The translations under genes and the position numbers were made by a program. Positions 229-15,643 of a DNA stretch of 32,000 bases are shown here, piece after piece (within the stretch, counting starts at the first letter, position 1; every line of letters begins with the position of its first letter). A model generated the notes under the pieces. That model saw only the letters and a program-made list of their open reading frames with translations. It made no database searches and was not told the DNA's origin. The DNA is taken from positions 167,590 to 199,589 of the forward strand of contig JAFGBS010000009.1 of assembly GCA_016933055.1 (NCBI GenBank), given 5' to 3'. The stretch comes from Promethearchaeota archaeon. GTDB taxonomy: Archaea > Asgardarchaeota > Lokiarchaeia > Sigyniarchaeales > Promethearchaeaceae.

Positions 229-486
229 GTGATTTCATCCATGGGAACAAATACCGATTATAATTCTGAGCAATCTAAAATACTCTCGTTAATAAAACAA
301 GGAGAGGATATTATCTCCGCTCGGATTACACTTGAATGTCCTTATTGCTCGTATAAGCGTATATTCAAAAATCAATTCAGTCCGAGCAAGATCGAGCTTA
401 TTACAGTGACATTTAAAATAATTGATTGGTTGACATGTGAGCGATGCGATCATCAGCTTAATTTTACGTTAGACCTATTTATTTGA
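229..486 (+). CDS. Small zinc-ribbon-like protein (two CxxC pairs), family unknown
   Basis: 85-aa ORF with a GTG at 229 and the first ATG at 241. It carries CPYC and CERC pairs about 40 residues apart. The 3' end overlaps the convergent gene 453..1601 by 34 nt. Confidence 0.4.
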   Translation: MISSMGTNTDYNSEQSKILSLIKQGEDIISARITLECPYCSYKRIFKNQFSPSKIELITVTFKIIDWLTCERCDHQLNFTLDLFI

Positions 487-2578: not shown

Positions 2579-2672
2579 ATAGTATGAGGGGAAGTTTCAC
2601 TTCTTATGAAACAATTCTTCGGCGGTATTCTTGAAGAAAACATTATTTATCAGTTTTTCATTGATCATTTTT

Positions 2673-3236
2673 ATGATAATTGCAATTTCTGGATTGCATG
2701 GGACTGGAAAATCAGTTGTAGGAAAAAAAATAGCAGAAAAACTTGGATTAGCGTATTACTCCACGGGAGACTTATTTCGCGCTATTGCACAGGAAAAAGG
2801 ATTATCATTAGAAGATCTGTCTAACCTCGCAGAAAAGGACAAAACTATAGATTATACCATCGATTATCGCATAAAACAACTTGCACTGAAAGGAAATTGC
2901 GTATTGGATAATCAACTTAGTTCGTATCTTCTTAAAGATTTAGTTGATTATAGTGTTTTGTTGGCATGTGATGAGGAAATTAGGATTAAAAGAATGAAAG
3001 AGAGAGACAAGGAGGAACTGGGTGCCAAAATTCAAGAAACTCAAGTACGTGAGCGTTCGGAGAGAAAACGATTCTTAGAATTTTATGGTATTGACATCCA
3101 TGATCCAGACAAAATCAAGGAAACCTTTGACTTGATTTTGGATACTACTCATTTATCTATTGAAGAAGTGACGTCGAAAATATTAACAGCTATTCAAGAA
3201 CAAGAGGGATTTTCACTTAAGGATCCGAAAAATTAA
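2673..3236 (+). CDS. cmk: Cytidylate kinase, archaeal type
   Basis: MIIAISGLHGTGKSVVGKKIAEKLGLAYYSTGDLFRAIAQEKG is the P-loop plus conserved archaeal Cmk N-terminus. The track ORF starts at 2631, but the internal ATG at 2673 gives the canonical N-terminus, so the exact start is uncertain. Confidence 0.85.
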   Translation: MIIAISGLHGTGKSVVGKKIAEKLGLAYYSTGDLFRAIAQEKGLSLEDLSNLAEKDKTIDYTIDYRIKQLALKGNCVLDNQLSSYLLKDLVDYSVLLACDEEIRIKRMKERDKEELGAKIQETQVRERSERKRFLEFYGIDIHDPDKIKETFDLILDTTHLSIEEVTSKILTAIQEQEGFSLKDPKN

Positions 3237-3332
3237 TATTTTTTCCACAACAGAAGAGGTTACACCTTGGTCTATCTTTCACCCTACATGGGAGATAAGA
3301 TATACTGAGCAAAATTACAATTGGTGACAATA

Positions 3333-3608
3333 ATGGGTGTCTATGACATAGGACAAGTATGCGTAAAATTACTCGGTCGAGAAGCTGGGTATCTTTGCAC
3401 TATCGTGGAAGTAATCGATAAAAACTTTGCATTAGTAGAAGGCTTGAAAGTAAAGCGGAGGAGATGTAACTTCAAACATTTATCTCCTACGAAACATATG
3501 ATTGAAATCAAGAAGGGTGCTAATAAAAAGGCAATTGAAGAAGCAATTGAGAAAGCAAAATTAAAGGAAAAATTCGAAACAAAAAATGTTCCGAAATTGC
3601 AACTTTAA
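3333..3608 (+). CDS. rpl14e: 50S ribosomal protein L14e (eL14)
   Basis: KOW-like IGQVCVKLLGREAGYLCTIVEVIDKNFALVEG...VKRRRCNFKHLSPT. The track ORF starts at TTG 3321; ATG 3333 is the more likely start. Confidence 0.85.
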   Translation: MGVYDIGQVCVKLLGREAGYLCTIVEVIDKNFALVEGLKVKRRRCNFKHLSPTKHMIEIKKGANKKAIEEAIEKAKLKEKFETKNVPKLQL

Positions 3609-3610
3609 CC

Positions 3611-3636
3611 AATCTATTTATTTTTTATTTTTAAAA
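3611..3636 (+). promoter_or_regulatory. A/T-only tract between rpl14e and the tRNA: probable oligo-T terminator for rpl14e and TATA-like element for the tRNA
   Basis: aatctatttattttttatttttaaaa lies directly after the rpl14e stop and roughly 3-28 nt upstream of the tRNA 5' end. Confidence 0.3.
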
Positions 3637-3638
3637 AA

Positions 3639-3751
3639 GCAGGTGTAATCAAGTGGTTACGATGCTAGCCTGGAATGAACGGAATAATTCCGTAAAATCC
3701 CGGTTAGCTAGTGGGTGAAAGCCCGCATGGGTTCGAATCCCATCGCCTGCG
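3639..3751 (+). tRNA. tRNA-Ser(GGA) with a 30-nt intron at the canonical 37/38 position
   Basis: Hand-folded. Acceptor GCAGGTG/CGCCTGC (one G-U) with discriminator G. D arm ATCA-AGTGGTTA-CGAT. Anticodon stem CTAGC/GCTAG with loop C-T-GGA-A (anticodon 3672-3674). Intron 3676-3705. Long variable arm T-GGGT-GAAA-GCCC-GC (class II). T arm ATGGG-TTCGAAT-CCCAT. No encoded CCA. Confidence 0.8.
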
Positions 3752-3769
3752 CTCTTAAAAACAATAAAA

Positions 3770-5143
3770 TTAAGATGGATTACGAATTATTTCCAGTATT
3801 TTATCCCGTTTCTTCAAAGATTCAGTAGCCGATAGTTCAATTTTACGTTCCATTTCCTCCTTTTTCTCTGGATCTTCTTCTCCGATTACCTTTTTAATGG
3901 GAGTGTAGGCGGACTCCCGAAACCGGGGAAGAATAATAGATTCTCCTGAGGGGTTTTTGAAAATTACATGATTTGAATCCGTAACTTGACCAATTTCCAT
4001 GATTTTCACTCCCGCTTTTTTAACAAGTTGAATAATTTTCTCAGACATACTTGGGGCTACAAATAACAATAAAGCATCTAATGATACTCCAAGATAATCT
4101 ACACCCGTTTTTTTTAGCAAATCTAATACTAAGGGATCCACCAGTTGTTCCACCTTTGATATTGAAATCTCAACTCCAGTTTTTGATTCGTAGATAATTT
4201 CGTATAAATCTCCTCGCAGACCTCCGTTGGTAACATCACACATGGTCCGAATATGAGGAATAAACTCAGAATTCAAAATGGTTTTTGCTGCAGTTAAAAA
4301 TTTGATGTTCAAGGTGGCTTTCAATGCATCATGATTTCCTGAATAAATCGCAGTGGTAGATATAGTCCCCCCTCCTGCGCCTTCCGTCATTAATATTTTA
4401 TCCCCGACTATAATGTCTCTACGTGCAAGTAAATTGTGTGTAATTCCAATCACTGCAATACCACCTGTAATTCGGGTTCCGATAACCATATCTCCCCCAA
4501 TTCTAAGTGTAGAGCCCGCGGTTATCGGAACTTCCGTCAGTTCAGCAACAGCAGAAACTCCTGCCATAAAATCGAATAATTTTCCTACATCTGCATCATC
4601 TCCCAAATGAATATCTACCATTATTGAAATAGGCACAGCTCCCTTTACATAGATGTCTCGTAATCCGGCGCGAGTAACATGAAATCCCGCCAAAAACGGA
4701 TAATCACTCAATCGACTATGCATTCCCTCCATTTTGGATATGATTAGTAAATCTTTGGAACCTTCCACTGTATCAGAAAGTTTTACCGCTCCTGCATCAT
4801 CTAAAGATTTTGGAGATAAATAAGCTTCAATGGAGGTACTAGATACTTCTCCAATGAGTTTGTGCACAAAAAAATCTCCTATCCCCCGACATCCAACTCC
4901 TTGTTCTCCCACTGTAATATTGGATTCGGGAATTTTCAGGATTTCCCTAACTACTAAATCCTCGCCCGAGTATTCGGATTTTACACACTCTTCCCAGATT
5001 GCAAGAGCCAGTTTACTAGCATCTTTTCTACTGATTTCCTTATAGACTAAGTACTCGTCTACCAATTTTTCCAGAATCTCGTTTTTTTTCCATTTTTTAG
5101 TAATTAAACTACGAGTAGTACCTTCCAGATCAGTCATAAGCAT
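3770..5143 (-). CDS. AIR-synthase-related protein (PurM/ThiL/HypE superfamily) with an N-terminal extension of about 70 aa
   Basis: 457 aa. A glycine-rich core (DIHLGDDADVG, GGDMVIGTRITGGIAVIG, TEGAGGGTIST, DVTNGGLRGDL) is typical of the PurM-like ATP-binding fold. The specific function cannot be assigned. Confidence 0.7.
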   Translation of the reverse strand: MLMTDLEGTTRSLITKKWKKNEILEKLVDEYLVYKEISRKDASKLALAIWEECVKSEYSGEDLVVREILKIPESNITVGEQGVGCRGIGDFFVHKLIGEVSSTSIEAYLSPKSLDDAGAVKLSDTVEGSKDLLIISKMEGMHSRLSDYPFLAGFHVTRAGLRDIYVKGAVPISIMVDIHLGDDADVGKLFDFMAGVSAVAELTEVPITAGSTLRIGGDMVIGTRITGGIAVIGITHNLLARRDIIVGDKILMTEGAGGGTISTTAIYSGNHDALKATLNIKFLTAAKTILNSEFIPHIRTMCDVTNGGLRGDLYEIIYESKTGVEISISKVEQLVDPLVLDLLKKTGVDYLGVSLDALLLFVAPSMSEKIIQLVKKAGVKIMEIGQVTDSNHVIFKNPSGESIILPRFRESAYTPIKKVIGEEDPEKKEEMERKIELSATESLKKRDKILEIIRNPS

Positions 5144-5173
5144 AATGGATTTGTGAATGGTTCCTCTAAATTC

Positions 5174-5189
5174 TTCTCAACATTGAGAA
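5174..5189. repeat. Perfect 7-bp inverted repeat TTCTCAA-ca-TTGAGAA in the divergent intergenic region
   Basis: Read directly from the sequence. It lies between the divergently transcribed AIR-synthase-like gene (start 5143) and the beta-RFAP synthase gene (start 5231), so it is a possible operator. Confidence 0.3.
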
Positions 5190-5230
5190 AAAATTAAAAA
5201 AGAATAAACCACGCGGTATCTTGAAAAAAA

Positions 5231-6352
5231 TTGCGAGTGTACATAAAAACACCATGCCGATTACATTTTAGCTTAATTGATATGAATGGTTCGCTAAATC
5301 GAGTCGATGGAGGAATAGGTCTTACCCTGAAACAACCTAATTTTACCTTAGAAGTCCTTGATCGTGAATCTCTTATTCATCGAGGAGTAGGGAAGTTTGC
5401 TTGGGAACTTTTACCGGAAAAGCAAATAGTCCTTGAAACAGATTTAGGTCAAGTCGTTTTTTCAATAGAATGTTCAGATTGCCCCAATCCCGATGAATTG
5501 TTAGATACCGTATCAGATATCACAGAAAAATTTATCCACCAGCTCACTGATAAATTCTCGCTCGCTAAATCTGATAAATTCCCTTTGAAATTTACGATAT
5601 GGGATTTTCTGTTTTCCCATATGGGTCTTGGTTCCAAAACTCAAATGGCACTTGCAATTGCATCCTCCATCATAAAGATTCTCGGATTAGATGTACACAT
5701 AGATGTTGAAACACTTACTCAAATGGTGGGGAGAGGAGGGACTTCGGGAATTGGATTTCGCTCTTTTGAAAATGGAGGTTTCATTTTGGATTGCGGTCAT
5801 CGATTTGGGAAAAATCTGGAGAAAGAAAGTTTCTTACCTTCGTCAGCTTCTCATGCTAAACCTGCACGTACAATTTTACGCTATGATTTTCCAGAGGAAT
5901 GGTACGTGCTTGTTGTAATCCTAAACGTTCCAGCGGGTGCATCGAATATGGAGGAAATTAATATCTTCCAAAATCACTGTCCTATCCCAATAGAAGAAGT
6001 CCAGCAAGTGACTCATCATATTTTGATGCAACTACTTCCCGGAATTATCGAGAAGGATTTGGTCAATTTTGGCGAAGCGGTGAATTCCATCCGAAAAATT
6101 GGATTTAAAAAAATCGAAATCGATCTACAACACGATCACATAAAGGAATTAATTAAATTCTTAGAACAAAAATCCTCAAAATGTGTGGGGATGAGTTCAT
6201 TCGGTCCCACGGTATTTTCCATATTTGAATCAAAGCCACTAGCATTGGAGATGCTGGATCATATCAAGAAAAAATTCTCATCGGTTGGATTTACTTCGTA
6301 TATCACTACTGCTAATAATACAGGAGCCGATATTGAGGTAACTCCTCAGTAA
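5231..6352 (+). CDS. mptG: Beta-ribofuranosylaminobenzene 5'-phosphate (beta-RFAP) synthase, GHMP-kinase fold; committed step of methanopterin biosynthesis
   Basis: The N-terminus (M)RVYIKTPCRLHFSLIDMNGSLNRVDGGIGLTL is characteristic of beta-RFAP synthases. GHMP-like motifs MGLGSKTQ and GRGGTSGIG are present. The start is TTG 5231 or GVG-type GTG 5237. Confidence 0.75.
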   Translation: MRVYIKTPCRLHFSLIDMNGSLNRVDGGIGLTLKQPNFTLEVLDRESLIHRGVGKFAWELLPEKQIVLETDLGQVVFSIECSDCPNPDELLDTVSDITEKFIHQLTDKFSLAKSDKFPLKFTIWDFLFSHMGLGSKTQMALAIASSIIKILGLDVHIDVETLTQMVGRGGTSGIGFRSFENGGFILDCGHRFGKNLEKESFLPSSASHAKPARTILRYDFPEEWYVLVVILNVPAGASNMEEINIFQNHCPIPIEEVQQVTHHILMQLLPGIIEKDLVNFGEAVNSIRKIGFKKIEIDLQHDHIKELIKFLEQKSSKCVGMSSFGPTVFSIFESKPLALEMLDHIKKKFSSVGFTSYITTANNTGADIEVTPQ

Positions 6353-6394: not shown

Positions 6395-7858
6395 TTAAAA
6401 TTGATCTAATTTTTTGGATTGGATCCAAATGTCCTCTAAAACGGGGGCAAACATTTTGATATGTTCATCCAATACTGAGCCCATCCCCGCTACTTGTAGT
6501 TCTCCATCTCCTTTGGAGACAACACAGACAATCATTTCCTCAAAATCTTTATTGAGAGCCCAAACCGTGCCGCGGGGGAAATATCGCAAGTCAACATTGG
6601 TCATTTCCTTTAATGTGTCCACTTTTCCTTTATCAGCAGAACTATTCAAATCAAAATCGGTAGAGATACGAACATTGATACGGGACTTTACTTTTGAGAG
6701 TGCTGTAAAATCAATATCTTTGATCGTGGGACAAATTACATATAACCGCATCTTAACCATGGAAAATGCCTCGTTTATCTGCGCTTTCATAGCTTCTGGT
6801 GATCTTATGAACCATACATCCTTAAAAGTCATCATAGAGGCTGCTTTAGAACGTTCCCAAAATTCCTGCATAGTTTTTTCTGCCAGATCCAATTGTCGGA
6901 CAACTGACATCATGGTATCTTCATCCAGTGTTTCCATTACTTCCTTTTGGAATTGCCCTTTTAATTCATTAATTCCTTTTTGAATAGAATTATTCACTTC
7001 AGTGACGCGTTTTTCTAAATCTCCTAATGTCTCTTCTAATCCTGCTTCGATATTGGTGAAAGAATCTCCTATTCCTGAACTTATCTCTCCAGCTGTATCC
7101 GTAATACTTCCTAATTGCTCAATAACTTGATCTAAGGTGTCTTGTGTAGTTTGGATTACCTTATCTCGGAAGTACCCTGCCATTTCTTCAAATTGGTCCT
7201 TAATAATACGTGAAACTATCTTTTCTGCAAAACTTGACAAGGCTCCCACTCGGAATTGCTTCTCGAATGCTTGCGAGATTTCAGATTTTATCGTTTCCAA
7301 TCGAGATTGCATTCGTCCGAATTCCATTTCAATATCTGGGGGAACTACTTCCTTAAGATTCAAAATAAATAATTTTAAATCATGGAATTTTTGAACCCCT
7401 TTCATTTGATTTTCAAATTTTGAGAGCTGGTCTTTCATTTTCACGGGGAGGGTTTCCTTCATTTCACGAATAAATTCCACATATTCTTGAAATTTGTCTA
7501 AGGATGCAATAGATTTCTCCATCCCGATGAACCTTCCCTCTAAAGCCGTAGGAGCTGCACTCTTCAATCCAGTAATAGATTCCTTAAATTGATGTATTTG
7601 TTTCATTAATGCAGCATATGGGGGTAATGCGGAATAATGGATAGTTTTTCCTGGTACTTCTCTTACCAATCCTTTTTCTACCAAATCTTTCGCGATTTCT
7701 TGCGCCCGTACATCATCTACTCCACCTAAAAGTCCCATTTCACCGGCACTAACTGGTCCTCTTCCAGTGATCCGAAAATAAACCTCTATTTCGTCTGGAG
7801 CTAATCCGATTAATTCGAGGACTTCTTGAGTAGATTTAAACTCTTGTTCACTTGACAT
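6395..7858 (-). CDS. TrmB-type winged-HTH protein with a long central coiled-coil insert and a TrmB-C/PLD-like C-terminal domain
   Basis: The N-terminus VLELIGLAPDEIEVYFRITGRGPVSAGEMGLLGGVDDVRAQEIAKDLVEKGLVREVPGKTIHYSALPP fits the TrmB HTH. Roughly residues 90-340 are heptad-like and E/K/Q-rich. The C-terminus VWFIRSPEAMKAQINEAFSMVKMRLYVICPT...INVRISTDFD resembles the TrmB middle/PLD-like domain. The start lies 8 nt after the stop of the upstream gene. Confidence 0.55.
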   Translation of the reverse strand: MSSEQEFKSTQEVLELIGLAPDEIEVYFRITGRGPVSAGEMGLLGGVDDVRAQEIAKDLVEKGLVREVPGKTIHYSALPPYAALMKQIHQFKESITGLKSAAPTALEGRFIGMEKSIASLDKFQEYVEFIREMKETLPVKMKDQLSKFENQMKGVQKFHDLKLFILNLKEVVPPDIEMEFGRMQSRLETIKSEISQAFEKQFRVGALSSFAEKIVSRIIKDQFEEMAGYFRDKVIQTTQDTLDQVIEQLGSITDTAGEISSGIGDSFTNIEAGLEETLGDLEKRVTEVNNSIQKGINELKGQFQKEVMETLDEDTMMSVVRQLDLAEKTMQEFWERSKAASMMTFKDVWFIRSPEAMKAQINEAFSMVKMRLYVICPTIKDIDFTALSKVKSRINVRISTDFDLNSSADKGKVDTLKEMTNVDLRYFPRGTVWALNKDFEEMIVCVVSKGDGELQVAGMGSVLDEHIKMFAPVLEDIWIQSKKLDQF

Positions 7859-7866
7859 GTTTTATT

Positions 7867-9015
7867 TCACTTCCCTTTTTTTTCGTGAAAATCATAATAT
7901 ACTTTTTCTAGATAATCCAAATGTTTGATCGCAGTCTCTTTTTTAATGATTCCCTCTTCTTGATCCTTACGGATATTCTCTAACATATATTCAGGGTAAA
8001 ATGGTCGAACTGCAACATCCGTGAGTAAAAATACCCACTCGACATTTTTGTTATCTTTAATTATTTTTAAAATATTGTCTTTCTCCATTACCGATAGCAA
8101 ATGAGCAACATCTAAGGCACCTTCATCTGTTCCTTTGGGAATCTTATTCAACGGGTAAGGTCTATCTCGGAATAGTGCTAAATAATCAAATTTATCTGGA
8201 TTAGTCAAATTGCGAGCAAGAACCAGATTATCTTCTTCTGTTGGCTTATAGTCTGCGAAAAATTTCTTCACTTCTGAAAGATATTTTTCGGCGAGATTTG
8301 GGTTTGGTAAGTTATTTTTAGCGTTATCGATGAGATCAAACGCTGGAGCTCGAAATATTGTAAAATCTGAGATGAGGAAAAGAAAAACTTCCGCTACTCC
8401 TTCAATCCAATCTTGTTTTACTAAACCACTTTTTACAAATGGATCTAGTGTGATATCAAGATTGGTAATGATTTTCTTTAATGACTCTTCCAGCAATGCT
8501 TGGAGTTGTTTCTTCGAGTAGGCACGTTCCCTAAGTAATTCTAGGATTTTTCTCCCTTTTTGACTATAATAAATCTGAGCTAGTAATTGCTCCTTCGTCA
8601 AATATTTCAATCTTTCCAATAAGAACAGTGCATTTTTCAGATACTGTTTAAGTTTCTTCACTACTTCATAATTTGCACTGATACTTGTACCGAGTTGGCG
8701 GAGGTATTTCAAGATCGCTTCATTTATATCTTTAATTACAGCCTCTCCGAACATATCTGGATCCTCACCCAATTCCAATATGAGATTAATCATAAAGGGG
8801 GTAGGGGAATCCATGCCTGTGAAGTAGGATGCAACGTTGGACTGAACTTTTTCTAGACGGACCAAGACATTTCCCGCTTCTGCAACACCAGTAATATGAG
8901 CATAAAATACTCGCATCATATCATCTAGATCCACTTTCAATTCTTCGGGATAATTCAACTGCACAATTAAACCATCAGTATCGGTCCATTTTGTAACTAC
9001 AAATCCTTTAGGCAT
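7867..9015 (-). CDS. Hypothetical cytoplasmic protein: N-terminal alpha/beta domain (roadblock/longin-like pattern) followed by helical, winged-helix-like segments
   Basis: 382 aa with no signal peptide or TM helix. The first ~110 aa (MPKGFVVTKWTDTDGLIVQLNYPE...NVLVRLEKVQSNVASYF...FMINLILELGEDPDMF...) alternate beta and alpha propensity. GRKILELLRERAYSKKQLQALLEES...LVKQDW and a second C-terminal segment look like wH units. Stop/start spacing to the upstream paralog is TAA-A-ATG. Confidence 0.5.
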   Translation of the reverse strand: MPKGFVVTKWTDTDGLIVQLNYPEELKVDLDDMMRVFYAHITGVAEAGNVLVRLEKVQSNVASYFTGMDSPTPFMINLILELGEDPDMFGEAVIKDINEAILKYLRQLGTSISANYEVVKKLKQYLKNALFLLERLKYLTKEQLLAQIYYSQKGRKILELLRERAYSKKQLQALLEESLKKIITNLDITLDPFVKSGLVKQDWIEGVAEVFLFLISDFTIFRAPAFDLIDNAKNNLPNPNLAEKYLSEVKKFFADYKPTEEDNLVLARNLTNPDKFDYLALFRDRPYPLNKIPKGTDEGALDVAHLLSVMEKDNILKIIKDNKNVEWVFLLTDVAVRPFYPEYMLENIRKDQEEGIIKKETAIKHLDYLEKVYYDFHEKKGK

Positions 9016-9016: not shown

Positions 9017-10633
9017 TTATTTGCTCCCTTCTATTTTCTTTTCTGGTATAGTTTTTTCTTCTGGGGGTGACATATCTTCATAACCCGACATGTCTTTTTT
9101 TGGAGCAGCTTTCTCTGAAGGCTGCGATGGTGCTTTTCTACTAGACTTATCTAGTAGACGTTTTTCTTCTTCAAAAATATTTCTTCCAATTGTGTTGGAG
9201 TCTTTTGTTTGCAATGGCTTGGTAGCCCTTCCATGTCGGATTTTTCGTCGTAGTGACTTTACAGTTCTAACTTGTGCGGGGAATTTAAAAATACCTTCAT
9301 ACAATCCGATTCCTGTAGCTAAGGCAGCAAGCAATCCTGCAGAACTATAAATATAAGGTTGCAAGTTCGTTGGAGGTGGGTCTGGCAATATAACTATATA
9401 TGTTAGTTTGAGCACTACGTTATCTATGTAAATTCCAATCGGAGAATCTAATTCAAAATTATCCCCAATATACATTTGAATAGATACGGTAATATTTTCA
9501 TCCAAACTAATTAGTGATGTAACATTGTATCCATCAGGATTAGCAACTTGGTAAATATCTGTGGCGGCACTGATTTTGACCGTTTCATAGAGTTTCTTAT
9601 TACTGACAAACAATCGAAATTCCGAGTTTGGAGAAGCATCTGTTGGCCATGGGGTATCAATTTTGTACGAAAATTCAAAGGACGCGTCTCGAATCAAAAC
9701 ATTCGTGCTATTAAGTGAATTCCCGATTCCATCCCAAGAAGCTGTTGTTAATTGGTTCATTTTCTTTTGATACGTGAACGATAAACTCACATTTTTGATA
9801 TATATGTCATCAAAAAAGTCTTGATCGCTATTTCTATTATCCTCACAAAATATTCTGATCCCCACGGTTATTGTAAAGTTAAAATCATCCGTATTTAACA
9901 CTGAAGTAAGAAAGAATTTCAGATTTTCTTCGGTGACAGTTGTTATTAATGTATCCTCCATTTGGTCGAATGTCCCCGCACTATCTTTACCGAGATCAGA
10001 AGTTTGATTATATGCAATTTCATACACTTTTTGCTTTGGTAAATCTGAAATTAGTAAATAATACCTAATGTAATCGTAATCTGCCGCTTGATGGACAGCA
10101 TCTCCAGGAACTTCAATTCCTCCAAAATCAGGATTGTTTGCATGAACGGTTGCATTGATTACAGCACTTACGGATGCAGAAGTGATTGTATAATCACTCA
10201 TATTATTCGGCATGCTAACATTATAATCAAAATGAACAGAAGGTGATTGGTCTGAACGCTGACCATAAGTGTCTCCCCAGTAATGAGAAACATAAAATCC
10301 TTCTGAAGTCACATCATAATCATCTGGCAAATCTGGATAGGCTATATTGTTTACTGCTGTCCATGTATCAGAATTCAAAGGTGCATTTAGCTCCCATTCC
10401 AATTCCTCTCCAAGTAAATTATAAAGTGCCTCTCCTGAACTCGAACTAGTAGTAATATCAGATTCATCTCCTGCTATAGAAGTTGACCATTGAGAACTGA
10501 TAGGATCATCAAAACCACTTATCCAAACTACATCTTCATAAAGTATTTCCCGAGCAGAAACTAAAGGAATTGTGCTTAAAAGACTAATCACACATAAAAT
10601 GCCTATGCTGGTAATTAATAGGGATCTTTTCAT
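9017..10633 (-). CDS. Surface glycoprotein paralog 1: signal peptide, two jelly-roll/CBM-like modules, Pro-rich stalk, one TM helix, conserved basic cytoplasmic motif, low-complexity tail
   Basis: Signal peptide MKRSLLITSIGILCVISLLSTIPLVSA|RE. I counted 9 N-x-S/T sequons by hand. Stalk PDPPPTN, TM YIYSSAGLLAALATGIGLY, then EGIFKFPAQVRTVKSLRRKIRHGRATKPL and a 64-aa K/E/S/P-rich tail. The start overlaps the stop of paralog 2 (ATGA at 10630-10633). Confidence 0.8.
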   Translation of the reverse strand: MKRSLLITSIGILCVISLLSTIPLVSAREILYEDVVWISGFDDPISSQWSTSIAGDESDITTSSSSGEALYNLLGEELEWELNAPLNSDTWTAVNNIAYPDLPDDYDVTSEGFYVSHYWGDTYGQRSDQSPSVHFDYNVSMPNNMSDYTITSASVSAVINATVHANNPDFGGIEVPGDAVHQAADYDYIRYYLLISDLPKQKVYEIAYNQTSDLGKDSAGTFDQMEDTLITTVTEENLKFFLTSVLNTDDFNFTITVGIRIFCEDNRNSDQDFFDDIYIKNVSLSFTYQKKMNQLTTASWDGIGNSLNSTNVLIRDASFEFSYKIDTPWPTDASPNSEFRLFVSNKKLYETVKISAATDIYQVANPDGYNVTSLISLDENITVSIQMYIGDNFELDSPIGIYIDNVVLKLTYIVILPDPPPTNLQPYIYSSAGLLAALATGIGLYEGIFKFPAQVRTVKSLRRKIRHGRATKPLQTKDSNTIGRNIFEEEKRLLDKSSRKAPSQPSEKAAPKKDMSGYEDMSPPEEKTIPEKKIEGSK

Positions 10634-12396
10634 TGGTTTCCTTCCCCCTTTGAGGTAATATCAAGATTAGTATCGGTTTTTGACGTATCAATAGATTTAG
10701 GTGGTTTGGGTTCGTTAATTTTATCTGCTTCAACATAGGACTTTGAGGAAGCTTCTTTACTTGCAGCGGTACTTTTTGTAGAAGATGTTTTCAGTTTTTT
10801 CTGAAGTTGTGTTTTTTCTGAAGCGTGTATCTCATTACTAATTGAGCTAGCATCCTTTTTTGTTAAGGGTTTCGTGCCTCGCCCCGTCCGTATTCTTCTC
10901 TTTAAATTACGTATGTGACGAACTTGAGCTGGATATTTGAAATGGCCCTCATAAGCACCAAATCCTACCCCTAATAATACCACTCCTCCCATTAACCCGT
11001 AAAGATATGGCCAATTACTCTCAGGTGGAGGAGCTGGAGGTTCAATTAATACATAGGCTACCCACAATTGTACATTTGTTATAGAAACTGTAATATTATC
11101 TGCAAGCGCAAATTCATCTGCCAGATATAATTCAATTGAAAGTGTAATATTCACTTCCTTTTGAAGTAATTTCGTTACATTAAACCCTTCAGCCTTTGAT
11201 TCTTGAAATGAAAAAGTTCCAGAACTTAATTTAATGGTTTCGTTATGCATATTTCCATTAATTCGAATCCGTAACTCCGAATTTGGGGAGGACAGCTCCC
11301 AAGGTGTGTCGATCTTGAAATCGTATTTAACAATTCCATTTGTGATTTGTGCATTATCCTCAACGATGGAATTTCCTACTTGGCTCCAAGAAGCAGATGC
11401 GTCACGATTGATTATTTTTTCATAACTGAATGTTAAATTATAAGATTTAATTAGTAAATCATCCCATGAATCATCATCGTTTAAAAAATTATCTTCGCAC
11501 CATATTTTCATTCCCATGGTAAAGTTAAAATTTCGATTATCCGTGGAAAGAACATCAGAAAGAAAAAATATTAAACTCTCTTCTGGAACAGTGAACAAAT
11601 AAGTATCTGTTAAGCTATCATATGTTGTTGTCAAATATTCAGCATCCGAGGTATATACATCTTGTCCGAGAGGATAAGTATATTGTCCTGTTTGATACTG
11701 GGCGATTTCATATGATTTTGTATTGGTAAGATCAGAAACTAATGAATAAAATCTTACATAATCGTAAGTCGAGAATTGAGGTGTTGTCGCCTGTGATGGT
11801 GGAACATCCGCCACGTTAGTATAATCCCCATAAGCTTCAACTCCACCATTTCCATTACCGTAACCGTTATTGGCTTTAACAGTAGCGTTCACAATTACAG
11901 AGACATTTGCTGATGTAATTCTATAATCCGACATGTCAACAGGCATAGATATATTTCTAGTCCAATGAACTGAGGTTAATTGACCTGCTTCGGCTTCCGT
12001 CCAGAAATGTGTAACATACATACCTTCAGATGTGATATCATAATCGTCAGGGAATGTAGTTAATTCTGGATTTTGTACTACCGTCCAATTATCAGTATGT
12101 GGTGGATCTTCTGCGATCGAGAATGTGCGATAATCTCCCACTACCTTGAAATCAGCTTGCCCCGAAGTCGGGCTTTCTGCTATCAAATCAGTCAAATCTC
12201 CATTAACCGAACTTATCCATTCGGGATCAATCGGAGCAATAAAACCGGGATTAACCATCCATTCCTTATCGGTTCCATCTTGAGCATTTAGTAAAGAGAT
12301 ATGGGAAAAAAACGCAATAACGATAAAGAAAACTATTAATCGATAATATTTCTTTTTTATTGTAAACCCCTCTGTAGGTTTTGTTATCTTAATCAC
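10630..12396 (-). CDS. Surface glycoprotein paralog 2 (same architecture as 9017..10633)
   Basis: GTG start, hydrophobic signal/anchor YRLIVFFIVIAFFSHISLLNA|QDG, and 10 sequons by hand count. Blocks shared with paralog 1 include DDYDITSEGMYVTHFW, MSDYRITSANVSVIVNATV, YEIA, FFLSDVLSTD, NFNFT, WCEDN, LTFSYEK, KIDTPW and SPNSE. Stalk EPPAPPPESN, one TM helix, then YEGHFKYPAQVRHIRNLKRRIRTGRGTKPL and a 77-aa S/K/T-rich tail. Confidence 0.8.
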   Translation of the reverse strand: MIKITKPTEGFTIKKKYYRLIVFFIVIAFFSHISLLNAQDGTDKEWMVNPGFIAPIDPEWISSVNGDLTDLIAESPTSGQADFKVVGDYRTFSIAEDPPHTDNWTVVQNPELTTFPDDYDITSEGMYVTHFWTEAEAGQLTSVHWTRNISMPVDMSDYRITSANVSVIVNATVKANNGYGNGNGGVEAYGDYTNVADVPPSQATTPQFSTYDYVRFYSLVSDLTNTKSYEIAQYQTGQYTYPLGQDVYTSDAEYLTTTYDSLTDTYLFTVPEESLIFFLSDVLSTDNRNFNFTMGMKIWCEDNFLNDDDSWDDLLIKSYNLTFSYEKIINRDASASWSQVGNSIVEDNAQITNGIVKYDFKIDTPWELSSPNSELRIRINGNMHNETIKLSSGTFSFQESKAEGFNVTKLLQKEVNITLSIELYLADEFALADNITVSITNVQLWVAYVLIEPPAPPPESNWPYLYGLMGGVVLLGVGFGAYEGHFKYPAQVRHIRNLKRRIRTGRGTKPLTKKDASSISNEIHASEKTQLQKKLKTSSTKSTAASKEASSKSYVEADKINEPKPPKSIDTSKTDTNLDITSKGEGNQ

Positions 12397-12556: not shown

Positions 12557-13894
12557 TTACTCTACAGTGTTATGTTCCTTGTTCCGTGGATTGTACAAAA
12601 TTTTTGCCGTGTTCAATCGATCAGATTTATGTTCTCTAAATACCCCTCCGATCCTTACTGATAAATCTTCAAAACTATACTTGAATTTAATTAACTCCCA
12701 CAATTTCAAAGCTACGAACCAGAATCCGACTACGATCATTAAATACGAAATGTTCATGATGACATTGCCCATTACCGCATCAAATTCTCCACTTAACTCC
12801 CCAAAGCGTGAGTGAAAGATGTTACTCCACAAAATATTCCATAAAGCTTCTAAACAATAAATCGTCAACGAAAGCATTCCGAAGCGACGTATAAAGATAC
12901 TTCTTTTTACCGTTTTCTCACCAGATTCAAAATCAAATTTTCTGAAAAACCACGGGATCCACAATAACATCAGCCCGAGATTTATAAATGAGAGATCTGG
13001 GGGTATGTTCTTGTATCTAAATAAGTAAGTAATAATATCTGTAGAAATAGTAAATAGGTGATATCCTACTAGTAATAATCCAACAATGAGGAAAATCAAT
13101 CCCAGTTTTCTGCAATAGCGCTTAACGGCTTTATAAGGACGATCTTCCGCTAAAAAAATACCGATCACAATTCCAATAAGTGCATATCCTGCATAAGGCA
13201 GTACACAGTGAAGGGATCCTGCTATAAAAGAGAGGAAAAATGCTGGTACATAATACAATCTACCCATTTCCAAATAAGATAAAAATAAGGGATTTAACCA
13301 TTCCCATAGTGCCTTAGAAATGGTTAACCACACAATAGCAAATATTGTGAGATTACGTATATTTATGTTTTTTGATTCCTCAAACCGATCTTTCCGCCAC
13401 ATGAATAATAAAGTAAAACAGGAAATTAATCCTGAACTTGCAATCATAGATAACGCATCGGCTTTAAAGAAGATTTCAATCTCCGGCAGACTAAATGCTC
13501 TTTTCTGAATTGAACCAGTGAAAAGGGAGTACAATTGATGATCACCCGTTAGAGCAGGAGTTGCCATAACAAATAATCCCATGTAGACAAAATGAAAAAG
13601 CAAGATCAATAAATTATTTATGATAGATGGTCTCACACTTCTCCAGATAGAATTACCTGCATCTTTTCGGTGGTAAACGATATAAGAATTTGCAATACCA
13701 GTAATTAATGCGAATAATCCTGCCCAAGTGCCTAAATAAAGCATTGGGGCAAATATGACTAGGGGTGAACGTGGAAGATATTCTACTGCATTTCCTTCAC
13801 CGAGAAAAATTCCGAACACGATACCATGTGCAAAAACGACCCCAAAAATAGCTAAGCCTCGAATAAAATCGATACTTAACAGTCGTTTAGACAT
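12557..13894 (-). CDS. Multi-pass membrane protein, acyltransferase-3 / DUF1624 (HGSNAT-like) type
   Basis: The N-terminus MSKRLLSIDFIRGLAIFGVVFAHG matches the R..S.D..RG.A...V..H signature of membrane O-/N-acyltransferases. About 10 or more hydrophobic helices follow. Confidence 0.55.
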   Translation of the reverse strand: MSKRLLSIDFIRGLAIFGVVFAHGIVFGIFLGEGNAVEYLPRSPLVIFAPMLYLGTWAGLFALITGIANSYIVYHRKDAGNSIWRSVRPSIINNLLILLFHFVYMGLFVMATPALTGDHQLYSLFTGSIQKRAFSLPEIEIFFKADALSMIASSGLISCFTLLFMWRKDRFEESKNINIRNLTIFAIVWLTISKALWEWLNPLFLSYLEMGRLYYVPAFFLSFIAGSLHCVLPYAGYALIGIVIGIFLAEDRPYKAVKRYCRKLGLIFLIVGLLLVGYHLFTISTDIITYLFRYKNIPPDLSFINLGLMLLWIPWFFRKFDFESGEKTVKRSIFIRRFGMLSLTIYCLEALWNILWSNIFHSRFGELSGEFDAVMGNVIMNISYLMIVVGFWFVALKLWELIKFKYSFEDLSVRIGGVFREHKSDRLNTAKILYNPRNKEHNTVE

Positions 13895-13973
13895 TGATCA
13901 GATCAATGATTATTCTAATAAATATCTATTTGAAATATTTTGTTTTGAAGAAAAAATTAGTAAAGAAAAGGAA

Positions 13974-15542
13974 TTAAAGCGTTTTTGTGGATTTCACGTT
14001 AAGCTCGTCTATATTTAGTCTCATTTTAGTTAACATATTCACTTGATCTGCTCGTGAGGGGATATTTAGTTTCTTTATTCTTGCACCTCTTCGGATTTTT
14101 CTTCTTATGCTACGTATTTTTCTCACATGGACAGGAAATTTAAGAATTCCTTGATACAAGCTAAATACAATAAAAAGTACTGCTATTCCTCCAGCAAGGC
14201 CTGCTGTCAAGGGTAAATAATTGGGTGGTGGTTCTGGAATCGGATCAGGGGTGAATATCATATAAGAGATCTTAAAATAGATGTTATCGATGAATATTGT
14301 GTAATTAAGCGTATTCTCAAATTCATCCGCAATATATAATTGGAATGAAACTGCCACGCTCAAGTTTGGAGTCAATAAATCCTTTAAAGCTCTTCCACTA
14401 AATTCAATTGTTTGATATATTGGAGTAAAACTATCCAATTTTACCGTTTCACTGTATTTTCTGCCATTAATAACGGTTTGAATCTCACTATTAGGGGATG
14501 CGGAAGTCCATAACGAATTGATTTTGTAATCAAAACTCAGTGACGCATTTGTGATAGTTGTGCAATTAACGACATCACCAAGTTGACTATATGAGATGGA
14601 ACTAAATTGGTCAATTTTTTTCTCATAGGTAAAGGATAAGCTGAAATTTTTGATACGTAGATCGTACCATGTATCTCTGTCGTAGGTAGGGTAATTATCT
14701 TCTGCATAAGCATTAATTTCGAGAATAATCGAGAAGTTTGTGTAATCGTATTGTAAAACTTTTGTGAGATAAAGGATTAGGAGATCTTGGTCAACAGGAA
14801 CTAATTCGGTATCGTTTAAATATACTCTTTCACCATACGTATTTGGTCCTACAGAACCCGATATGTCTTTCCCTAGGGTTGTGGTTTTATTATATGCAAT
14901 CCGATAATTTTCAATGTTGTTTGGATCTGTAACCGTGATTGAAAACCGTGCGTAATCTCCAACACCAATATATCCACTACTCAATAACACATCACCTGGT
15001 GTTTCTAAGTTTGTATCTCCACTCCCATTTACAATTGCACTAACTGAGGCTGATGTAATCACATAATCACTCATATTAACAGGAAGTTCAACTGAATGCT
15101 CCCATGTCATACTGGGGAAATTTCTGGTTTGGTTTCCCGTTACACCGAAATAATTTGTGACGGGTTCTTCTAGGTACTCATGCCCAATATAGCAGCCATT
15201 TTCATCAATACCATAGATATCGGGTAAAATAAACTCAGGATTGGGGATTTCAGTCCAATTATCGGAGATCGGCGGATTTGCATTGAAGACATAATCTCCC
15301 TCCTCACCAATTAAAACGAATGTGGCTTCTCCTCCTGTTATTTGTCCATCCAAATCTTGATCATCCCCTGAAGTTTCGATTACCCAGAAAGAAGAATTAT
15401 CGAATCCATTATTTCGTAACCATTCAATATCTGTGTAATAATCTTCTCGTGCTGATACAGAAACAATTTTAGAAGAGACAATCGAGGATAAAATCAAGAT
15501 TGATATAATTATTACTAATCTCTTGATCCACTTCATTTTCAA
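13974..15542 (-). CDS. Surface glycoprotein paralog 3 (more divergent member of the same family)
   Basis: The signal peptide ends VSVSA|RE, as in paralog 1. I counted 13 sequons by hand. Shared blocks are NMSDYVITSASVSAIVN, RIAYNKT, NFS, AEDN, RIKNFSLSFTYEKK, SPNSE and FIDNIYFKISY. Stalk PDPIPEPPPN, one TM helix, then YQGILKFPVHVRKIRSIRRKIRRGARIKKL and a 30-aa tail. Confidence 0.8.
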   Translation of the reverse strand: MKMKWIKRLVIIISILILSSIVSSKIVSVSAREDYYTDIEWLRNNGFDNSSFWVIETSGDDQDLDGQITGGEATFVLIGEEGDYVFNANPPISDNWTEIPNPEFILPDIYGIDENGCYIGHEYLEEPVTNYFGVTGNQTRNFPSMTWEHSVELPVNMSDYVITSASVSAIVNGSGDTNLETPGDVLLSSGYIGVGDYARFSITVTDPNNIENYRIAYNKTTTLGKDISGSVGPNTYGERVYLNDTELVPVDQDLLILYLTKVLQYDYTNFSIILEINAYAEDNYPTYDRDTWYDLRIKNFSLSFTYEKKIDQFSSISYSQLGDVVNCTTITNASLSFDYKINSLWTSASPNSEIQTVINGRKYSETVKLDSFTPIYQTIEFSGRALKDLLTPNLSVAVSFQLYIADEFENTLNYTIFIDNIYFKISYMIFTPDPIPEPPPNYLPLTAGLAGGIAVLFIVFSLYQGILKFPVHVRKIRSIRRKIRRGARIKKLNIPSRADQVNMLTKMRLNIDELNVKSTKTL

Positions 15543-15643
15543 CTTAATTCAGATCCCTTTGAATGATATGATAATTTTGGATATTGATTCTATATATATC
15601 TTAACTTATACATTACATTAACTATCAAATATTTGTGAATACC

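What the first reader, a model, noticed from the sequence alone, without database searches (positions are those of the whole stretch)
7867..9015. 382-aa orphan: roadblock/longin-like N-terminal pattern fused to winged-helix-like repeats, coupled to a membrane glycoprotein
There is no signal peptide, TM helix or catalytic motif. The first ~110 residues show a beta-beta-alpha-beta-beta-beta-alpha-like alternation: GFVVTKW, GLIVQLNY, helix DLDDMMRVFYAHITG, NVLVRLE, VASYFTG, FMINLILEL, helix DMFGEAVIKDINEAILKYL. That pattern is reminiscent of roadblock/LC7 or longin regulatory domains, which are expanded in Asgard archaea. It is followed by at least two segments with a winged-helix flavour (GRKILELLRERAYSKKQLQALLEES...GLVKQDW, and LDVAHLLSVMEKDNILKIIKDNKNVEWVFLLTD). 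Tandem wH units also occur in ESCRT-II-type and other scaffold proteins. Its start lies 1 nt after the stop of paralog 1. All fold statements are my pattern reading and remain speculative.
Basis: inference. Interest (0 to 1): 0.65.

Follow-up and report, generated by a model that had tools for sequence, protein, structure and literature searches.

The report
Longin plus winged-helix surface-protein adaptor
This is a real, strongly conserved cytoplasmic protein of Asgard archaea, built like the eukaryotic nutrient-signalling subunits NPRL2/NPRL3 (a longin domain plus two winged helices); operon structure and gene fusions tie it to single-pass cell-surface proteins, which suggests a device coupling the cell surface to the cytoplasm.

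Summary
The 382-aa ORF (7867-9015, minus strand) is real, but it is not an orphan. It has hundreds of homologues (~60% identity across Lokiarchaeia). More distant relatives occur in Odin-, Njord-, Hel- and Sigynarchaeia.

It shows an N-terminal longin fold (β-β-α-β-β-β-α), a long helix and two winged-helix units. The best PDB fold matches for the whole chain are NPRL2 and NPRL3 of GATOR1. No ESCRT-II protein is in the top 50. No sequence-level homology to NPRL2 was detectable, and the arginine finger and the Pro of the 'GP' motif are absent.

The gene is the middle of a conserved cassette:
- Upstream lie surface protein(s) with a TM helix and a basic 'YQxHFKYPPxVRKIRK' tail (at least 62 of 70 loci).
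- Downstream lies a TrmB-type winged-helix/coiled-coil protein (67 of 72 loci).
- In paralogues the module is fused behind the same TM/tail motif.
- Tail-bearing giant proteins also sit next to the module in Odin, Hel and Njord genomes.

The most likely role is a non-catalytic cytoplasmic adaptor for surface-protein tails. GTPase regulation and DNA binding remain possible. I rate it a new variant of a known kind, of moderate-to-high interest.

The parts
7867..9015 (-). Complete ORF, 382 aa: cytoplasmic longin + helix + wH1 + helical linker + wH2 + C-terminal helices
   Evidence: ORF list. 395 homologues. AF2 model with pLDDT 93.4 and pTM 0.88, all five models >91.
8686..9015 (-). Longin domain, residues 1-110 (β-β-α-β-β-β-α). 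It is acidic: net -8 here, family mean -8.5.
   Evidence: DSSP of the model. Foldseek longin hits with probability 1.0. Charge calculation.
8944..8988 (-). β1-β2 hairpin motif W10-(T/D)11-x3-G15 ... Y22-P23-E24, the most conserved part of the longin domain family-wide
   Evidence: Column counts: W 50/55, D 43/55, G 52/55, P 54/55. Same spacing as C9orf72 W33-D34...G38 (PMC12290439) and as NPRL2 F15...G20...P28-E29 (sequence verified; collinear but non-significant hhalign).
8602..8685 (-). Long connecting helix, residues 111-138
   Evidence: Model helix 112-138.
8347..8601 (-). Winged-helix unit 1, residues 139-223 (four helices, β-hairpin and a third strand)
   Evidence: Model. Weak profile match to the Mnd1 wH (E=0.048).
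8242..8346 (-). Helical linker, residues 224-258, with the conserved R222-x-P224 and FFxxY256 motifs at its ends
   Evidence: Model. Conservation table.
7996..8241 (-). Winged-helix unit 2, residues 259-340 (ArsR/PH1932-like by sequence)
   Evidence: hmmsearch of the family profile against PDB sequences: 1uly_A E=1.2e-4, HlyU 0.02. HTH_20/HTH_5 hits in 5-6 of 55 members. Model.
7870..7995 (-). C-terminal helices, residues 341-382 (P341-E-Y motif and a long terminal helix)
   Evidence: Model helices 343-353 and 359-381. P341 and L369 are nearly invariant.
9017..10633 (-). Upstream partner gene: single-pass surface protein paralogue 1 (538 aa). Its stop lies 1 nt before the target's ATG.
   Evidence: ORF list. 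Junction sequence. Homologous upstream ORFs in 50/67 related loci.
9212..9373 (-). C-terminal TM helix plus basic juxtamembrane tail motif of paralogue 1 (…GIGLYEGIFKFPAQVRTVKSLRRKIRHGRATKPL)
   Evidence: Motif located. Consensus LYQtHFKYPPmVRKIRKLkKK from 57 loci. Only 1 spurious regex match among about 400 unrelated ORFs.
10630..12396 (-). Surface protein paralogue 2 (588 aa) with the same TM/tail motif at nt 10864-11025. Overlaps paralogue 1 by 4 nt.
13974..15542 (-). Surface protein paralogue 3 (522 aa) with the same TM/tail motif at nt 14067-14228, further upstream on the same strand
6395..7858 (-). Downstream partner gene (487 aa): TrmB-type winged helix + long helical/coiled-coil region + C-terminal α/β domain. 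Starts 8 nt after the target's stop.
   Evidence: Pfam TrmB 9.9e-7. Profile versus PDB: TrmB 3qph_A 3.4e-6. Orthologue immediately downstream in 67/72 loci. Junction.

Best explanation
The ORF encodes the soluble, cytoplasmic middle component of a conserved Asgard cassette. Upstream are one or more single-pass surface proteins. Each has a large ectodomain, a C-terminal TM helix and a very basic juxtamembrane tail (consensus LYQxHFKYPPxVRKIRKLKKK). Then comes this longin-wH-wH protein, followed by a TrmB-type winged-helix/coiled-coil protein.

Shown: the protein has the domain order of eukaryotic NPRL2/NPRL3, namely an N-terminal longin domain, a helical connector and two winged-helix units.

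Inferred:
- It acts as a non-catalytic adaptor or platform that docks onto the cytoplasmic tails of the surface proteins. The acidic longin domain and the basic tail are complementary in charge.
- Through its winged helices it recruits the coiled-coil TrmB-like partner, and possibly small GTPases, so linking the Lokiarchaeal cell surface to cytoplasmic machinery.
- It is probably not a GTPase-activating enzyme itself, because no arginine is conserved anywhere in the longin domain.
For: Fold and architecture:
- AF2 model with pLDDT 93.4 and pTM 0.88 from an 89-sequence alignment.
- With two independent models, the top 7-8 Foldseek PDB hits are whole-chain matches to NPRL2/NPRL3 (E 3e-4 to 3e-3, probability up to 0.99). 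Longin-only hits follow.
- NPRL2/3 are described as longin plus two or more ααααββ wHTH repeats (PMC3747258).

Coupling to surface proteins:
- The stop and the ATG are 1 nt apart here and directly abutting in 29/67 loci.
- The immediately upstream ORF carries the TM/tail motif in 57/67 loci. At least 62/70 loci carry one on the same strand.
- The regex is essentially absent from unrelated ORFs (1 in about 400).
- In at least 6 cluster representatives that retain the junction (P0150, P0156, P0159, P0181, P0189, P0170; also P0210 and P0151 by inspection) the module is fused about 75 residues behind the same TM/tail motif.
- Giant proteins bearing the tail motif lie next to the module in Odin, Hel and Njord genomes, in a different gene order.

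Other:
- The partner orthologue is immediately downstream in 67/72 loci.
- Family mean charges: longin -8.5, wH1 -1.1, wH2 -2.6. This argues for protein binding rather than DNA binding.
- No Arg is conserved in the longin domain.
Against: - No direct evidence of binding exists. Gene fusion and synteny show functional linkage, not which surfaces touch.
- The whole-chain fold matches have low TM-scores (~0.25, rmsd >20 A), so only domain order and the individual folds are shared, not the rigid arrangement.
- No sequence homology to NPRL2 was detected.
- The second wH resembles DNA-binding ArsR-type domains by sequence, and the partner has a TrmB-type DNA-binding-like domain, so a transcriptional role is not excluded.
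- The function of the ectodomains is unknown.
Confidence: 0.5

Rival explanations
1. It is a GTPase regulator in the NPRL2/NPRL3-FLCN-C9orf72 sense. The longin domain would be a platform (GAP or GEF subunit) for Asgard Rag/Arf/Ras-like GTPases, recruited to the membrane by the surface-protein tail. This overlaps with the adaptor model but adds an enzymatic or regulatory role.
For: - The top fold hits are NPRL2/NPRL3, followed by Lst4, SMCR8, FLCN and DENND longins.
- The conserved W-D-x3-G hairpin has the spacing of the functionally essential C9orf72 W33-D34...G38 (PMC12290439).
- In all three informative loci of the fused paralogue (L085, L087, L089), Ras/Roc-type GTPase genes lie immediately downstream. 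Roadblock-like N-termini are detected in L085 and L089.
- Longin GAP-like proteins with GP motif and Arg finger are already reported in Asgard archaea (PMC12290439).
Against: - No arginine is conserved in the longin domain. The NPRL2 R78 position aligns to a variable, often deleted loop.
- The Pro of the GP motif is absent.
- The window copy has T, not D, after the Trp.
- GTPase genes are not enriched near the split cassette: 6 regions in about 0.9 Mb of 79 loci, and none in this 32-kb window.
- The GTPase genes next to the fused paralogue are convergent, not co-transcribed, and two of the three loci are closely related.
Confidence: 0.22
2. It is a one-component transcription regulator. A longin/GAF-like sensor domain would control wHTH DNA binding and regulate the surface-protein operon, perhaps together with the TrmB-like protein.
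For: - wH2 matches ArsR-type regulators by sequence (PH1932 E=1.2e-4, HlyU 0.02).
- HTH_20, HTH_5, HTH_24 and TrmB Pfam hits occur in a minority of members.
- CodY (GAF + wHTH) appears among the weaker fold hits.
- NCBI labels a Njordarchaeal homologue as a 'winged helix-turn-helix domain-containing protein'.
- The neighbouring gene has a TrmB-type wH.
Against: - Both wH units are on average neutral to acidic across the family, and the putative recognition helix of wH2 carries no conserved basic residues.
- The module is repeatedly fused to the cytoplasmic end of giant membrane proteins and to TPR or SIR2-TPR regions. That is typical of protein-protein scaffolds.
- The best whole-chain fold hits are non-DNA-binding NPRL2/3.
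- The TrmB-like N-terminal domain of the partner is also acidic (-5).
Confidence: 0.15
3. It is an ESCRT-II-like tandem winged-helix scaffold (Vps22/Vps25/Vps36 type), as the first reader suggested as one option.
For: Tandem wH units are present. Asgard genomes contain diversified ESCRT components, including proteins that combine longin with ESCRT-related domains (PMC10936438).
Against: - No ESCRT-II chain is among the top 50 Foldseek hits with either model.
- No EAP30 or ESCRT-II Pfam hit occurs in the query or in the top families of 55 members.
- ESCRT-II subunits have no longin domain.
- No ESCRT genes are seen in the loci whose gene calls were listed.
Confidence: 0.03

Closest known systems
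NPRL2 / NPRL3 (Npr2/Npr3), subunits of GATOR1/SEACIT, the Rag-GTPase GAP of eukaryotes
   Same: - Same size (380 vs 382 aa for NPRL2).
- Same domain order: N-terminal longin, helical connector, then two or more ααααββ winged-helix repeats (PMC3747258).
- Best whole-chain Foldseek hits with two independent models.
- The longin hairpin shares the spacing aromatic-x4-G-x7-P-E.
   Different: - No detectable sequence homology: Pfam NPR2/NPR3 not hit, hhalign not significant.
- No Arg finger and no Pro in the 'GP' motif.
- No DEPDC5-like partner.
- Partnered instead with single-pass surface proteins and a TrmB-like coiled-coil protein.
- The relative domain arrangement differs (TM ~0.25).
C9orf72-SMCR8 and FLCN-FNIP longin-DENN GAP complexes
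   Same: Longin domain of the same subclass by fold hits (7mge_C, 6nzd_I, 8dhb_I). The family-wide W-D-x3-G motif matches C9orf72 W33-D34...G38 in place and spacing (PMC12290439).
   Different: - The C-terminal part is tandem wH, not DENN.
- No Arg finger.
- The window copy has W-T.
- No evidence for a heterodimeric longin partner.
'NPRL2-like' and other longin proteins already catalogued in Asgard archaea (Liu et al. asCOGs; Lokiarchaeal Roadblock-Longin protein 8yqg)
   Same: Asgard-specific expansion of longin proteins. Liu et al. report a family with longin + NPRL2-type C-terminal domain and many asCOGs with an 'NPRL2-like longin domain' (10.1101/2020.10.19.343400). 8yqg is a top longin hit.
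   Different: [quoted passage not shown]
- I could not check asCOG membership because the supplements are not held.
- In the papers searched I found no description of the operon or fusion link to surface proteins with a conserved tail.
SRα SRX domain-SRβ, and longin-SNAREs (membrane-anchored longin platforms)
   Same: A longin-fold domain held at a membrane by a TM partner or segment. SRX is among the fold hits (1nrj_A). The fused paralogues are literally TM-tail-longin proteins.
   Different: No SNARE motif and no SRβ-type partner gene. The ectodomain-TM orientation and the wH repeats have no counterpart.
ArsR/MarR/TrmB-type wHTH regulators; CodY (GAF + wHTH)
   Same: wH2 is recognisably ArsR/PH1932-like by sequence. 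A sensor-like α/β domain followed by wH resembles one-component regulators.
   Different: - Acidic to neutral wH units without a conserved basic recognition helix.
- Two wH units in tandem.
- Fusion to membrane proteins and to TPR regions.
ESCRT-II (Vps22/Vps25/Vps36)
   Same: Tandem winged helices used as a protein scaffold.
   Different: No longin domain in ESCRT-II. No fold or sequence hit here.

Membership tests
Longin domain fold | β-β-α-β-β-β-α(-α) topology, five-stranded antiparallel sheet sandwiched by helices | tested here: met
   DSSP of the pLDDT-93 model: E4-11, E15-22, H30-42, E48-54, E59-65, E74-81, H86-107. Foldseek probability 1.0 to the Lst4 longin, Loki longin 8yqg and NPRL2 longin (4.1 A/141 columns).
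Roadblock/LC7 (Pfam PF03259) | α-β-β-α-β-β-β order with an N-terminal helix; match to the Robl_LC7 profile | tested here: not met
   The chain starts directly with β1 and has no N-terminal helix. No Robl_LC7 hit at E<=1. It is not among the top families in 55 members.
NPRL2/NPRL3 (GATOR1/SEACIT) | Architecture: N-terminal longin followed by two or more ααααββ winged-helix repeats (PMC3747258) | tested here: met
   Model topology. The top 7-8 Foldseek PDB hits are whole-chain NPRL2/NPRL3 alignments.
NPRL2/NPRL3 (GATOR1/SEACIT) | Sequence membership (Pfam NPR2 PF06218 / NPR3; profile-profile similarity) | tested here: not met
   - No Pfam hit.
- hhalign of the family profile against human NPRL2 and against a 14-sequence vertebrate NPRL2 alignment: probability <1%.
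- The N-terminal-only alignment is collinear but P=0.074.
- The NPRL2 profile was shallow (Neff ~1.3), so this test is weak.
NPRL2/NPRL3 (GATOR1/SEACIT) | Catalytic arginine finger (NPRL2 Arg78) in the β4-β5 loop | tested here: not met
   No Arg is conserved anywhere in the longin domain across 55 diverse members. The R78-equivalent position falls at T72, in a loop that is deleted in 35/55 members.
NPRL2/NPRL3 (GATOR1/SEACIT) | Complex with DEPDC5 and a paralogous longin partner; GAP activity on Rag GTPases | not testable with these tools
   No DEPDC5-like gene appears in the loci whose genes were listed. Activity needs biochemistry.
GAP-type longins (FLCN, SMCR8, NPRL2, C9orf72) as defined in PMC12290439 | 'GP' motif at the β1-β2 loop / start of β2 | tested here: not met
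   The Gly is conserved (G15, 52/55), but the next residue is A/V/L, never a conserved Pro.
C9orf72-type longin | W-D motif five residues before the hairpin Gly (W33-D34...G38 in human; PMC12290439) | tested here: inconclusive
   Family: W10 50/55, D11 43/55, G15 52/55, with the same spacing. The window protein and its close Lokiarchaeial orthologues have W-T. A three-residue motif could be convergent.
ESCRT-II (Vps22/Vps25/Vps36) | Tandem wH only; EAP30/Vps25-type sequence or fold match | tested here: not met
   No ESCRT-II chain in the top 50 fold hits. No such Pfam family in the query or among the top families of 55 members.
ArsR/MarR-type wHTH DNA-binding regulators | wHTH sequence signature | tested here: met
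   For wH2 only: 1uly_A (PH1932) E=1.2e-4, HlyU 0.02. HTH_20 in 6/55 and HTH_5 in 5/55 members.
ArsR/MarR-type wHTH DNA-binding regulators | Basic DNA-contacting recognition helix/wing; DNA binding | tested here: inconclusive
   Family mean net charge is -1.1 for wH1 and -2.6 for wH2, and no basic residues are conserved in helix 303-312. This argues against DNA binding but does not test it.

The most novel reading that the evidence does not exclude
The cassette is a transmembrane signalling device of Asgard archaea. Large surface receptors would carry, or recruit through a conserved basic tail, an NPRL2/3-C9orf72-like longin/winged-helix platform. That platform would in turn engage Roadblock-fused Ras/Rag-like GTPases and a coiled-coil effector. 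This would be an archaeal forerunner of the membrane-anchored longin-GTPase signalling hubs (GATOR1/FLCN/Ragulator type) of eukaryotes, with the fused and split forms as two states of one system.
Probability: 0.15. Interest if true: 0.85.

Novelty: new variant of a known kind. Interest (0 to 1): 0.6.

Why it matters
Longin and roadblock platforms with small GTPases are central to eukaryotic membrane identity and nutrient signalling. [quoted passage not shown]

Here one family, among the most conserved in Lokiarchaeia, has the NPRL2/NPRL3 architecture. Operon structure, gene fusion and cross-class synteny all link it to single-pass surface proteins that share a conserved cytoplasmic tail motif. 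Lokiarchaea lack an S-layer and display 'complex surface proteins' on their bodies and protrusions (PMC9834061).

This gives a concrete and testable triad of tail peptide, adaptor and coiled-coil partner. It can be used to ask how an Asgard cell couples its surface to its interior, and whether longin platforms were membrane-receptor-associated before eukaryotes arose. If the role is only structural, the family is still a useful marker and a tractable protein-interaction system.

Tried and rejected
- Direct family searches of the protein found nothing usable: Pfam, NCBIfam, PADLOC and phmmer against PDB. The only entry, CoV_NSP15_C, is below threshold and was dismissed.
- Paralogy with the other 382-aa ORF of the window (453-1601) was rejected. 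BLASTP shows no similarity, and that ORF has a nucleotidyltransferase domain.
- Sequence homology to NPRL2 was tested three ways, all negative. The NPRL2 search returned only vertebrate sequences, so the profile was shallow.
- My first by-eye alignment of NPRL2 'YSRNALLF' to 'QSNVASYF' was wrong. It paired β5 with β4. The model and hhalign place R78 at the β4-β5 loop.
- GTPase enrichment near the split cassette was rejected: 6 regions in about 0.9 Mb.
- An anti-phage defence role has no support for the cassette. Only the Helarchaeal SIR2-TPR fusion matches defence models.
- The first AF2 model, from a shallow MSA, was unstable across models (82 down to 48). It was replaced by one from a diverse MSA.
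- The search for related loci failed with the diverse alignment, so the close alignment was used. That biases the 79 loci towards Lokiarchaeia.
- The asCOG supplementary tables are not held.
Full report
**1. The observation**

The window contains an ATG-initiated ORF on the minus strand at 7867..9015, encoding 382 aa. It has no hydrophobic segment that could be a TM helix. It has no significant hit in Pfam, NCBIfam, PADLOC or PDB sequences.

The upstream gene (9017..10633) ends ...AAA TAA. One base later comes the ATG. The next gene (6395..7858) starts 8 nt after the target's TGA.

The window comes from a Lokiarchaeial (Promethearchaeota) MAG. The identical protein is deposited as hypothetical protein JW776_06255.

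The claim 'orphan' is wrong:
- The word-indexed search gave 395 hits at E<=1e-3. Nearly all of the best 120 are 375-aa proteins at 58-65% identity.
- The exhaustive search of 50%-identity representatives found 237 clusters, 43 of them at E<=1e-30.
- Named members come from Lokiarchaeia, Odinarchaeum yellowstonii LCB_4, Njord-, Hel- and Sigynarchaeia.
- Among 33 Lokiarchaeial orthologues the mean column identity is 79%, and residues 29-91 are almost invariant.
- A pattern scan of one genome per GTDB species found 92 genomes with a close relative.

**2. The fold**

A first AF2 model from the 33 close orthologues was only moderately confident. The best model reached pLDDT 82, and the other four ranged from 66 down to 48.

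I rebuilt the alignment with 89 sequences, including members at 21-45% identity. This gave pLDDT 93.4 and pTM 0.88, with all five models above 91.

The topology is:
- β4-11, β15-22, α30-42, β48-54, β59-65, β74-81, α86-107.
- A long helix at 112-138.
- A four-helix + β-hairpin (+ third strand) unit at about 139-223.
- Two linker helices.
- A second such unit at about 259-340.
- Two C-terminal helices.

The N-terminal order β-β-α-β-β-β-α is the longin order, not the roadblock order, and no Robl_LC7 match exists.

The second winged helix is also visible by sequence. The family profile hits the ArsR-type PH1932 at E=1.2e-4 and HlyU at 0.02. The first unit weakly hits the Mnd1 wH at 0.048.

**3. 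What it resembles**

Foldseek against the PDB gave the same answer with both models.
- The top 7-8 hits are whole-chain alignments to NPRL2 and NPRL3 in GATOR1 structures (E 3e-4 to 3e-3, probability up to 0.99). Chain identities were checked by sequence. Yeast Npr2 (8adl_S) also appears.
- Longin-only hits at probability ~1.0 follow: the Lst4 longin, the Lokiarchaeal longin of 8yqg, the NPRL2 longin (4.1 A over 141 columns), SMCR8, FLCN, DENND1A/10, TRAPP and SRX.
- Winged-helix regulators come further down.
- No ESCRT-II subunit is in the top 50.

NPRL2/NPRL3 are described as an N-terminal longin domain followed by two or more ααααββ winged HTH repeats (PMC3747258). That is the architecture found here, in a protein of almost the same length.

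The whole-chain TM-scores are low (~0.25, rmsd >20 A). What is shared is the domain order and the domain folds, not the rigid arrangement.

**4. Membership tests**

Sequence homology to NPRL2 could not be shown.
- hhalign of the family profile against human NPRL2 and against a vertebrate NPRL2 alignment gave nothing.
- An N-terminal-only comparison gave a collinear 98-column alignment in the structurally expected register, but with P=0.074.

Family-wide conservation shows a hairpin motif W10-D11-x3-G15...Y22-P23.
- Its W-D...G spacing equals that of C9orf72 W33-D34...G38. That paper calls the W-D pair essential and the 'GP' motif diagnostic of GAP-type longins (PMC12290439).
- Its aromatic...G...P-E spacing equals NPRL2 F15...G20...P28-E29.
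- However, the Pro of 'GP' is absent, and the window protein has W-T rather than W-D.
- No arginine is conserved anywhere in the longin domain. The NPRL2 Arg78 position falls in a loop that is deleted in most members.

I therefore file the protein as working like, and built like, the non-catalytic members of the NPRL/C9orf72 class. I do not file it as a member of the NPRL2 family.

**5. Genomic context**

This is the strongest evidence about function.

In the window, four genes are packed on the minus strand: surface paralogue 2, surface paralogue 1, the target and a TrmB-like protein. A third surface paralogue and a multi-TM protein lie further upstream. All three surface proteins have an N-terminal signal/anchor, 9-13 sequons, a C-terminal TM helix and a shared basic juxtamembrane sequence (...LYEGIFKFPAQVRTVKSLRRKIRHG...).

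In 79 related loci from different species:
- The ORF immediately upstream carries TM + [FYW]x3-5[KR]xPxxV[KR] in 57 of 67 cases. The consensus is LYQtHFKYPPmVRKIRKLkKK, followed by about 58 more residues.
- The stop directly abuts the ATG in 29 of 67.
- Thirty-five further motif-bearing ORFs lie in these loci, all on the same strand. They are tandem paralogues, as in the window. At least 62 of 70 loci therefore have one.
- Only one spurious regex match occurs in about 400 unrelated ORFs.
- The orthologue of the TrmB-like protein is immediately downstream in 67 of 72 loci, at 49-59% identity (83% in the nearest relative, L006).

A paralogous subfamily (about 28-31% identity) has the whole module fused to the C-terminus of 1300-2500-aa proteins. 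These have LamG-type ectodomains and the same TM/juxtamembrane motif about 75 residues before the longin domain. One such gene (P0159) is on the same contig as a split cassette (L017).

Adjacency persists in distant classes even though the gene order changes:
- Odin: a 1552-aa protein with TM ...KKPIQVKK.
- Hel: a 1892-aa protein with TM ...YQTYYRYPPTVR.
- Njord: a 1602-aa protein with TM ...YRRAKIPFVIKK.

The Njord locus even holds two module paralogues, each next to a giant protein.

**6. Other fusions and neighbours**

- The module occurs with C-terminal TPR repeats (P0148) and with SIR2-TPR (P0217, Helarchaeota).
- Its wH-wH half (residues ~137-379) occurs behind helix-hairpin-helix repeats (P0129, P0131).
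- In Hel locus L005, a TPR protein is encoded between the giant protein and the module.
- The partner protein has a TrmB-type wH and first coiled-coil helix (Pfam 1e-6 to 5e-11; PDB 3qph_A 3.4e-6), about 230 residues of helical repeats and a C-terminal α/β domain. Its wH region is acidic (-5).
- The target's longin domain is strongly acidic (family mean -8.5), and its wH units are neutral to acidic. This fits protein binding, in particular to the very basic tails, better than DNA binding.

**7. GTPases**

The window holds no small GTPase gene. The 79 split-cassette loci (about 0.9 Mb) contain only about six GTPase regions, which is no enrichment.

By contrast, all three informative loci of the fused paralogue have Ras/Roc-type GTPase genes directly downstream, in convergent orientation. 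Weak Roadblock-like N-termini are detected in L085 and L089. Two of these loci are closely related, so this is a lead, not a result.

**8. Interpretation**

Shown:
- A conserved cytoplasmic longin-wH-wH protein with NPRL2/3-like architecture.
- Tight and evolutionarily persistent genetic linkage, including fusion, to single-pass surface proteins with a conserved basic tail.
- In Lokiarchaeia, linkage to a TrmB-like coiled-coil protein.

Inferred:
- The protein is a non-catalytic adaptor that docks on the tails and recruits cytoplasmic partners.
- A GTPase-platform role (confidence ~0.2) and a DNA-binding regulator role (~0.15) are not excluded.
- An ESCRT-II-like role is unlikely.

**9. Novelty**

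Asgard longin expansions and 'NPRL2-like' proteins are published (10.1101/2020.10.19.343400; PMC9834061; PMC12290439). The domain-level idea is therefore not new, and this family may already sit in an asCOG, which I could not check.

In the papers searched I found no description of the following:
- the cassette;
- the conserved tail motif;
- the receptor-module fusions;
- the cross-class synteny.

Lokiarchaea lack an ordered S-layer and show complex surface proteins (PMC9834061). This cassette is a candidate for how such proteins are connected to the cytoplasm. Hence my rating: a new variant of a known kind, with interest about 0.6.

Noticed in passing
window 12557-15542 (-): A third surface-protein paralogue (13974-15542, 522 aa, same TM/tail motif) is followed by a 445-aa multi-TM protein (12557-13894). 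That protein has only a sub-threshold Acyl_transf_3 match. Both lie on the same strand, upstream of the four-gene cassette, and may belong to a longer operon.
   Followed up: partly
window 6395-7858 (-) versus L009-L083 downstream ORFs: The TrmB-like partner here is 487 aa. Most orthologues are about 640-730 aa. They carry an extra P/E/K-rich linker and a conserved C-terminal helix motif (...EKKGFSAVLRQI...FWRSKL) that is missing in this genome and in about eight others (e.g. L006, L008, L015, L039, L050, L064).
   Followed up: partly
L085 5733-17565; L087 11017-13421; L089 5237-7238: Next to the fused (receptor-TM-longin-wH) paralogue lies a conserved convergent set. It comprises Ras/Roc-type small GTPases of about 306 and/or 327 aa, a 275-286-aa protein with no Pfam match, and, in L085 only, a divergent 651-aa tandem-GTPase protein. 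Weak Roadblock/LC7 N-termini are detected in L085 and L089.
   Followed up: partly
P0129, P0131; P0148, P0217; L005 7072-7983: The module is separable and is recombined with other domains. The wH-wH half occurs behind helix-hairpin-helix repeats. The full module occurs in front of TPR or SIR2-TPR regions (Helarchaeota). A stand-alone TPR gene sits between the giant protein and the module in L005.
   Followed up: partly
L086 1427-13589 (Njordarchaeal metagenome contig): Two paralogues of the module (362 and 363 aa, 28% identical to the window protein) lie in one locus. Each is adjacent to a giant (1602 / 1469 aa) secreted or membrane protein, with a Roc/Arf-type GTPase gene at the locus edge.
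   Followed up: partly
window 1598-6352 and 15635-19672: The cassette is embedded among pterin/methanopterin-type biosynthesis genes: GCHY-1 type GTP cyclohydrolase, an AIR-synthase-related protein, a GHMP-kinase-like protein, dihydroneopterin aldolase, DUF447, DUF1464 and a pterin-binding protein. Further on come CdhD, ribosomal proteins S2 and S8e, a GH32 hydrolase, geranylgeranyl reductase and a UbiA prenyltransferase.
   Followed up: no
L015, L018, L023, L025, L037, L040, L044-L046, L051, L057 (record titles): Contigs labelled Heimdall-, Hod-, Hermod- or Thorarchaeota carry orthologues about 56-61% identical to the Lokiarchaeial protein, in the same range as bona fide Loki genomes. This suggests mislabelled bins or inconsistent naming rather than true presence in those classes.
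   Followed up: no
window 453-1601 (-): A second ORF of exactly 382 aa exists in the window. It is unrelated to the target (no BLASTP similarity) and carries a weak nucleotidyltransferase (NTP_transf_2) match.
   Followed up: yes
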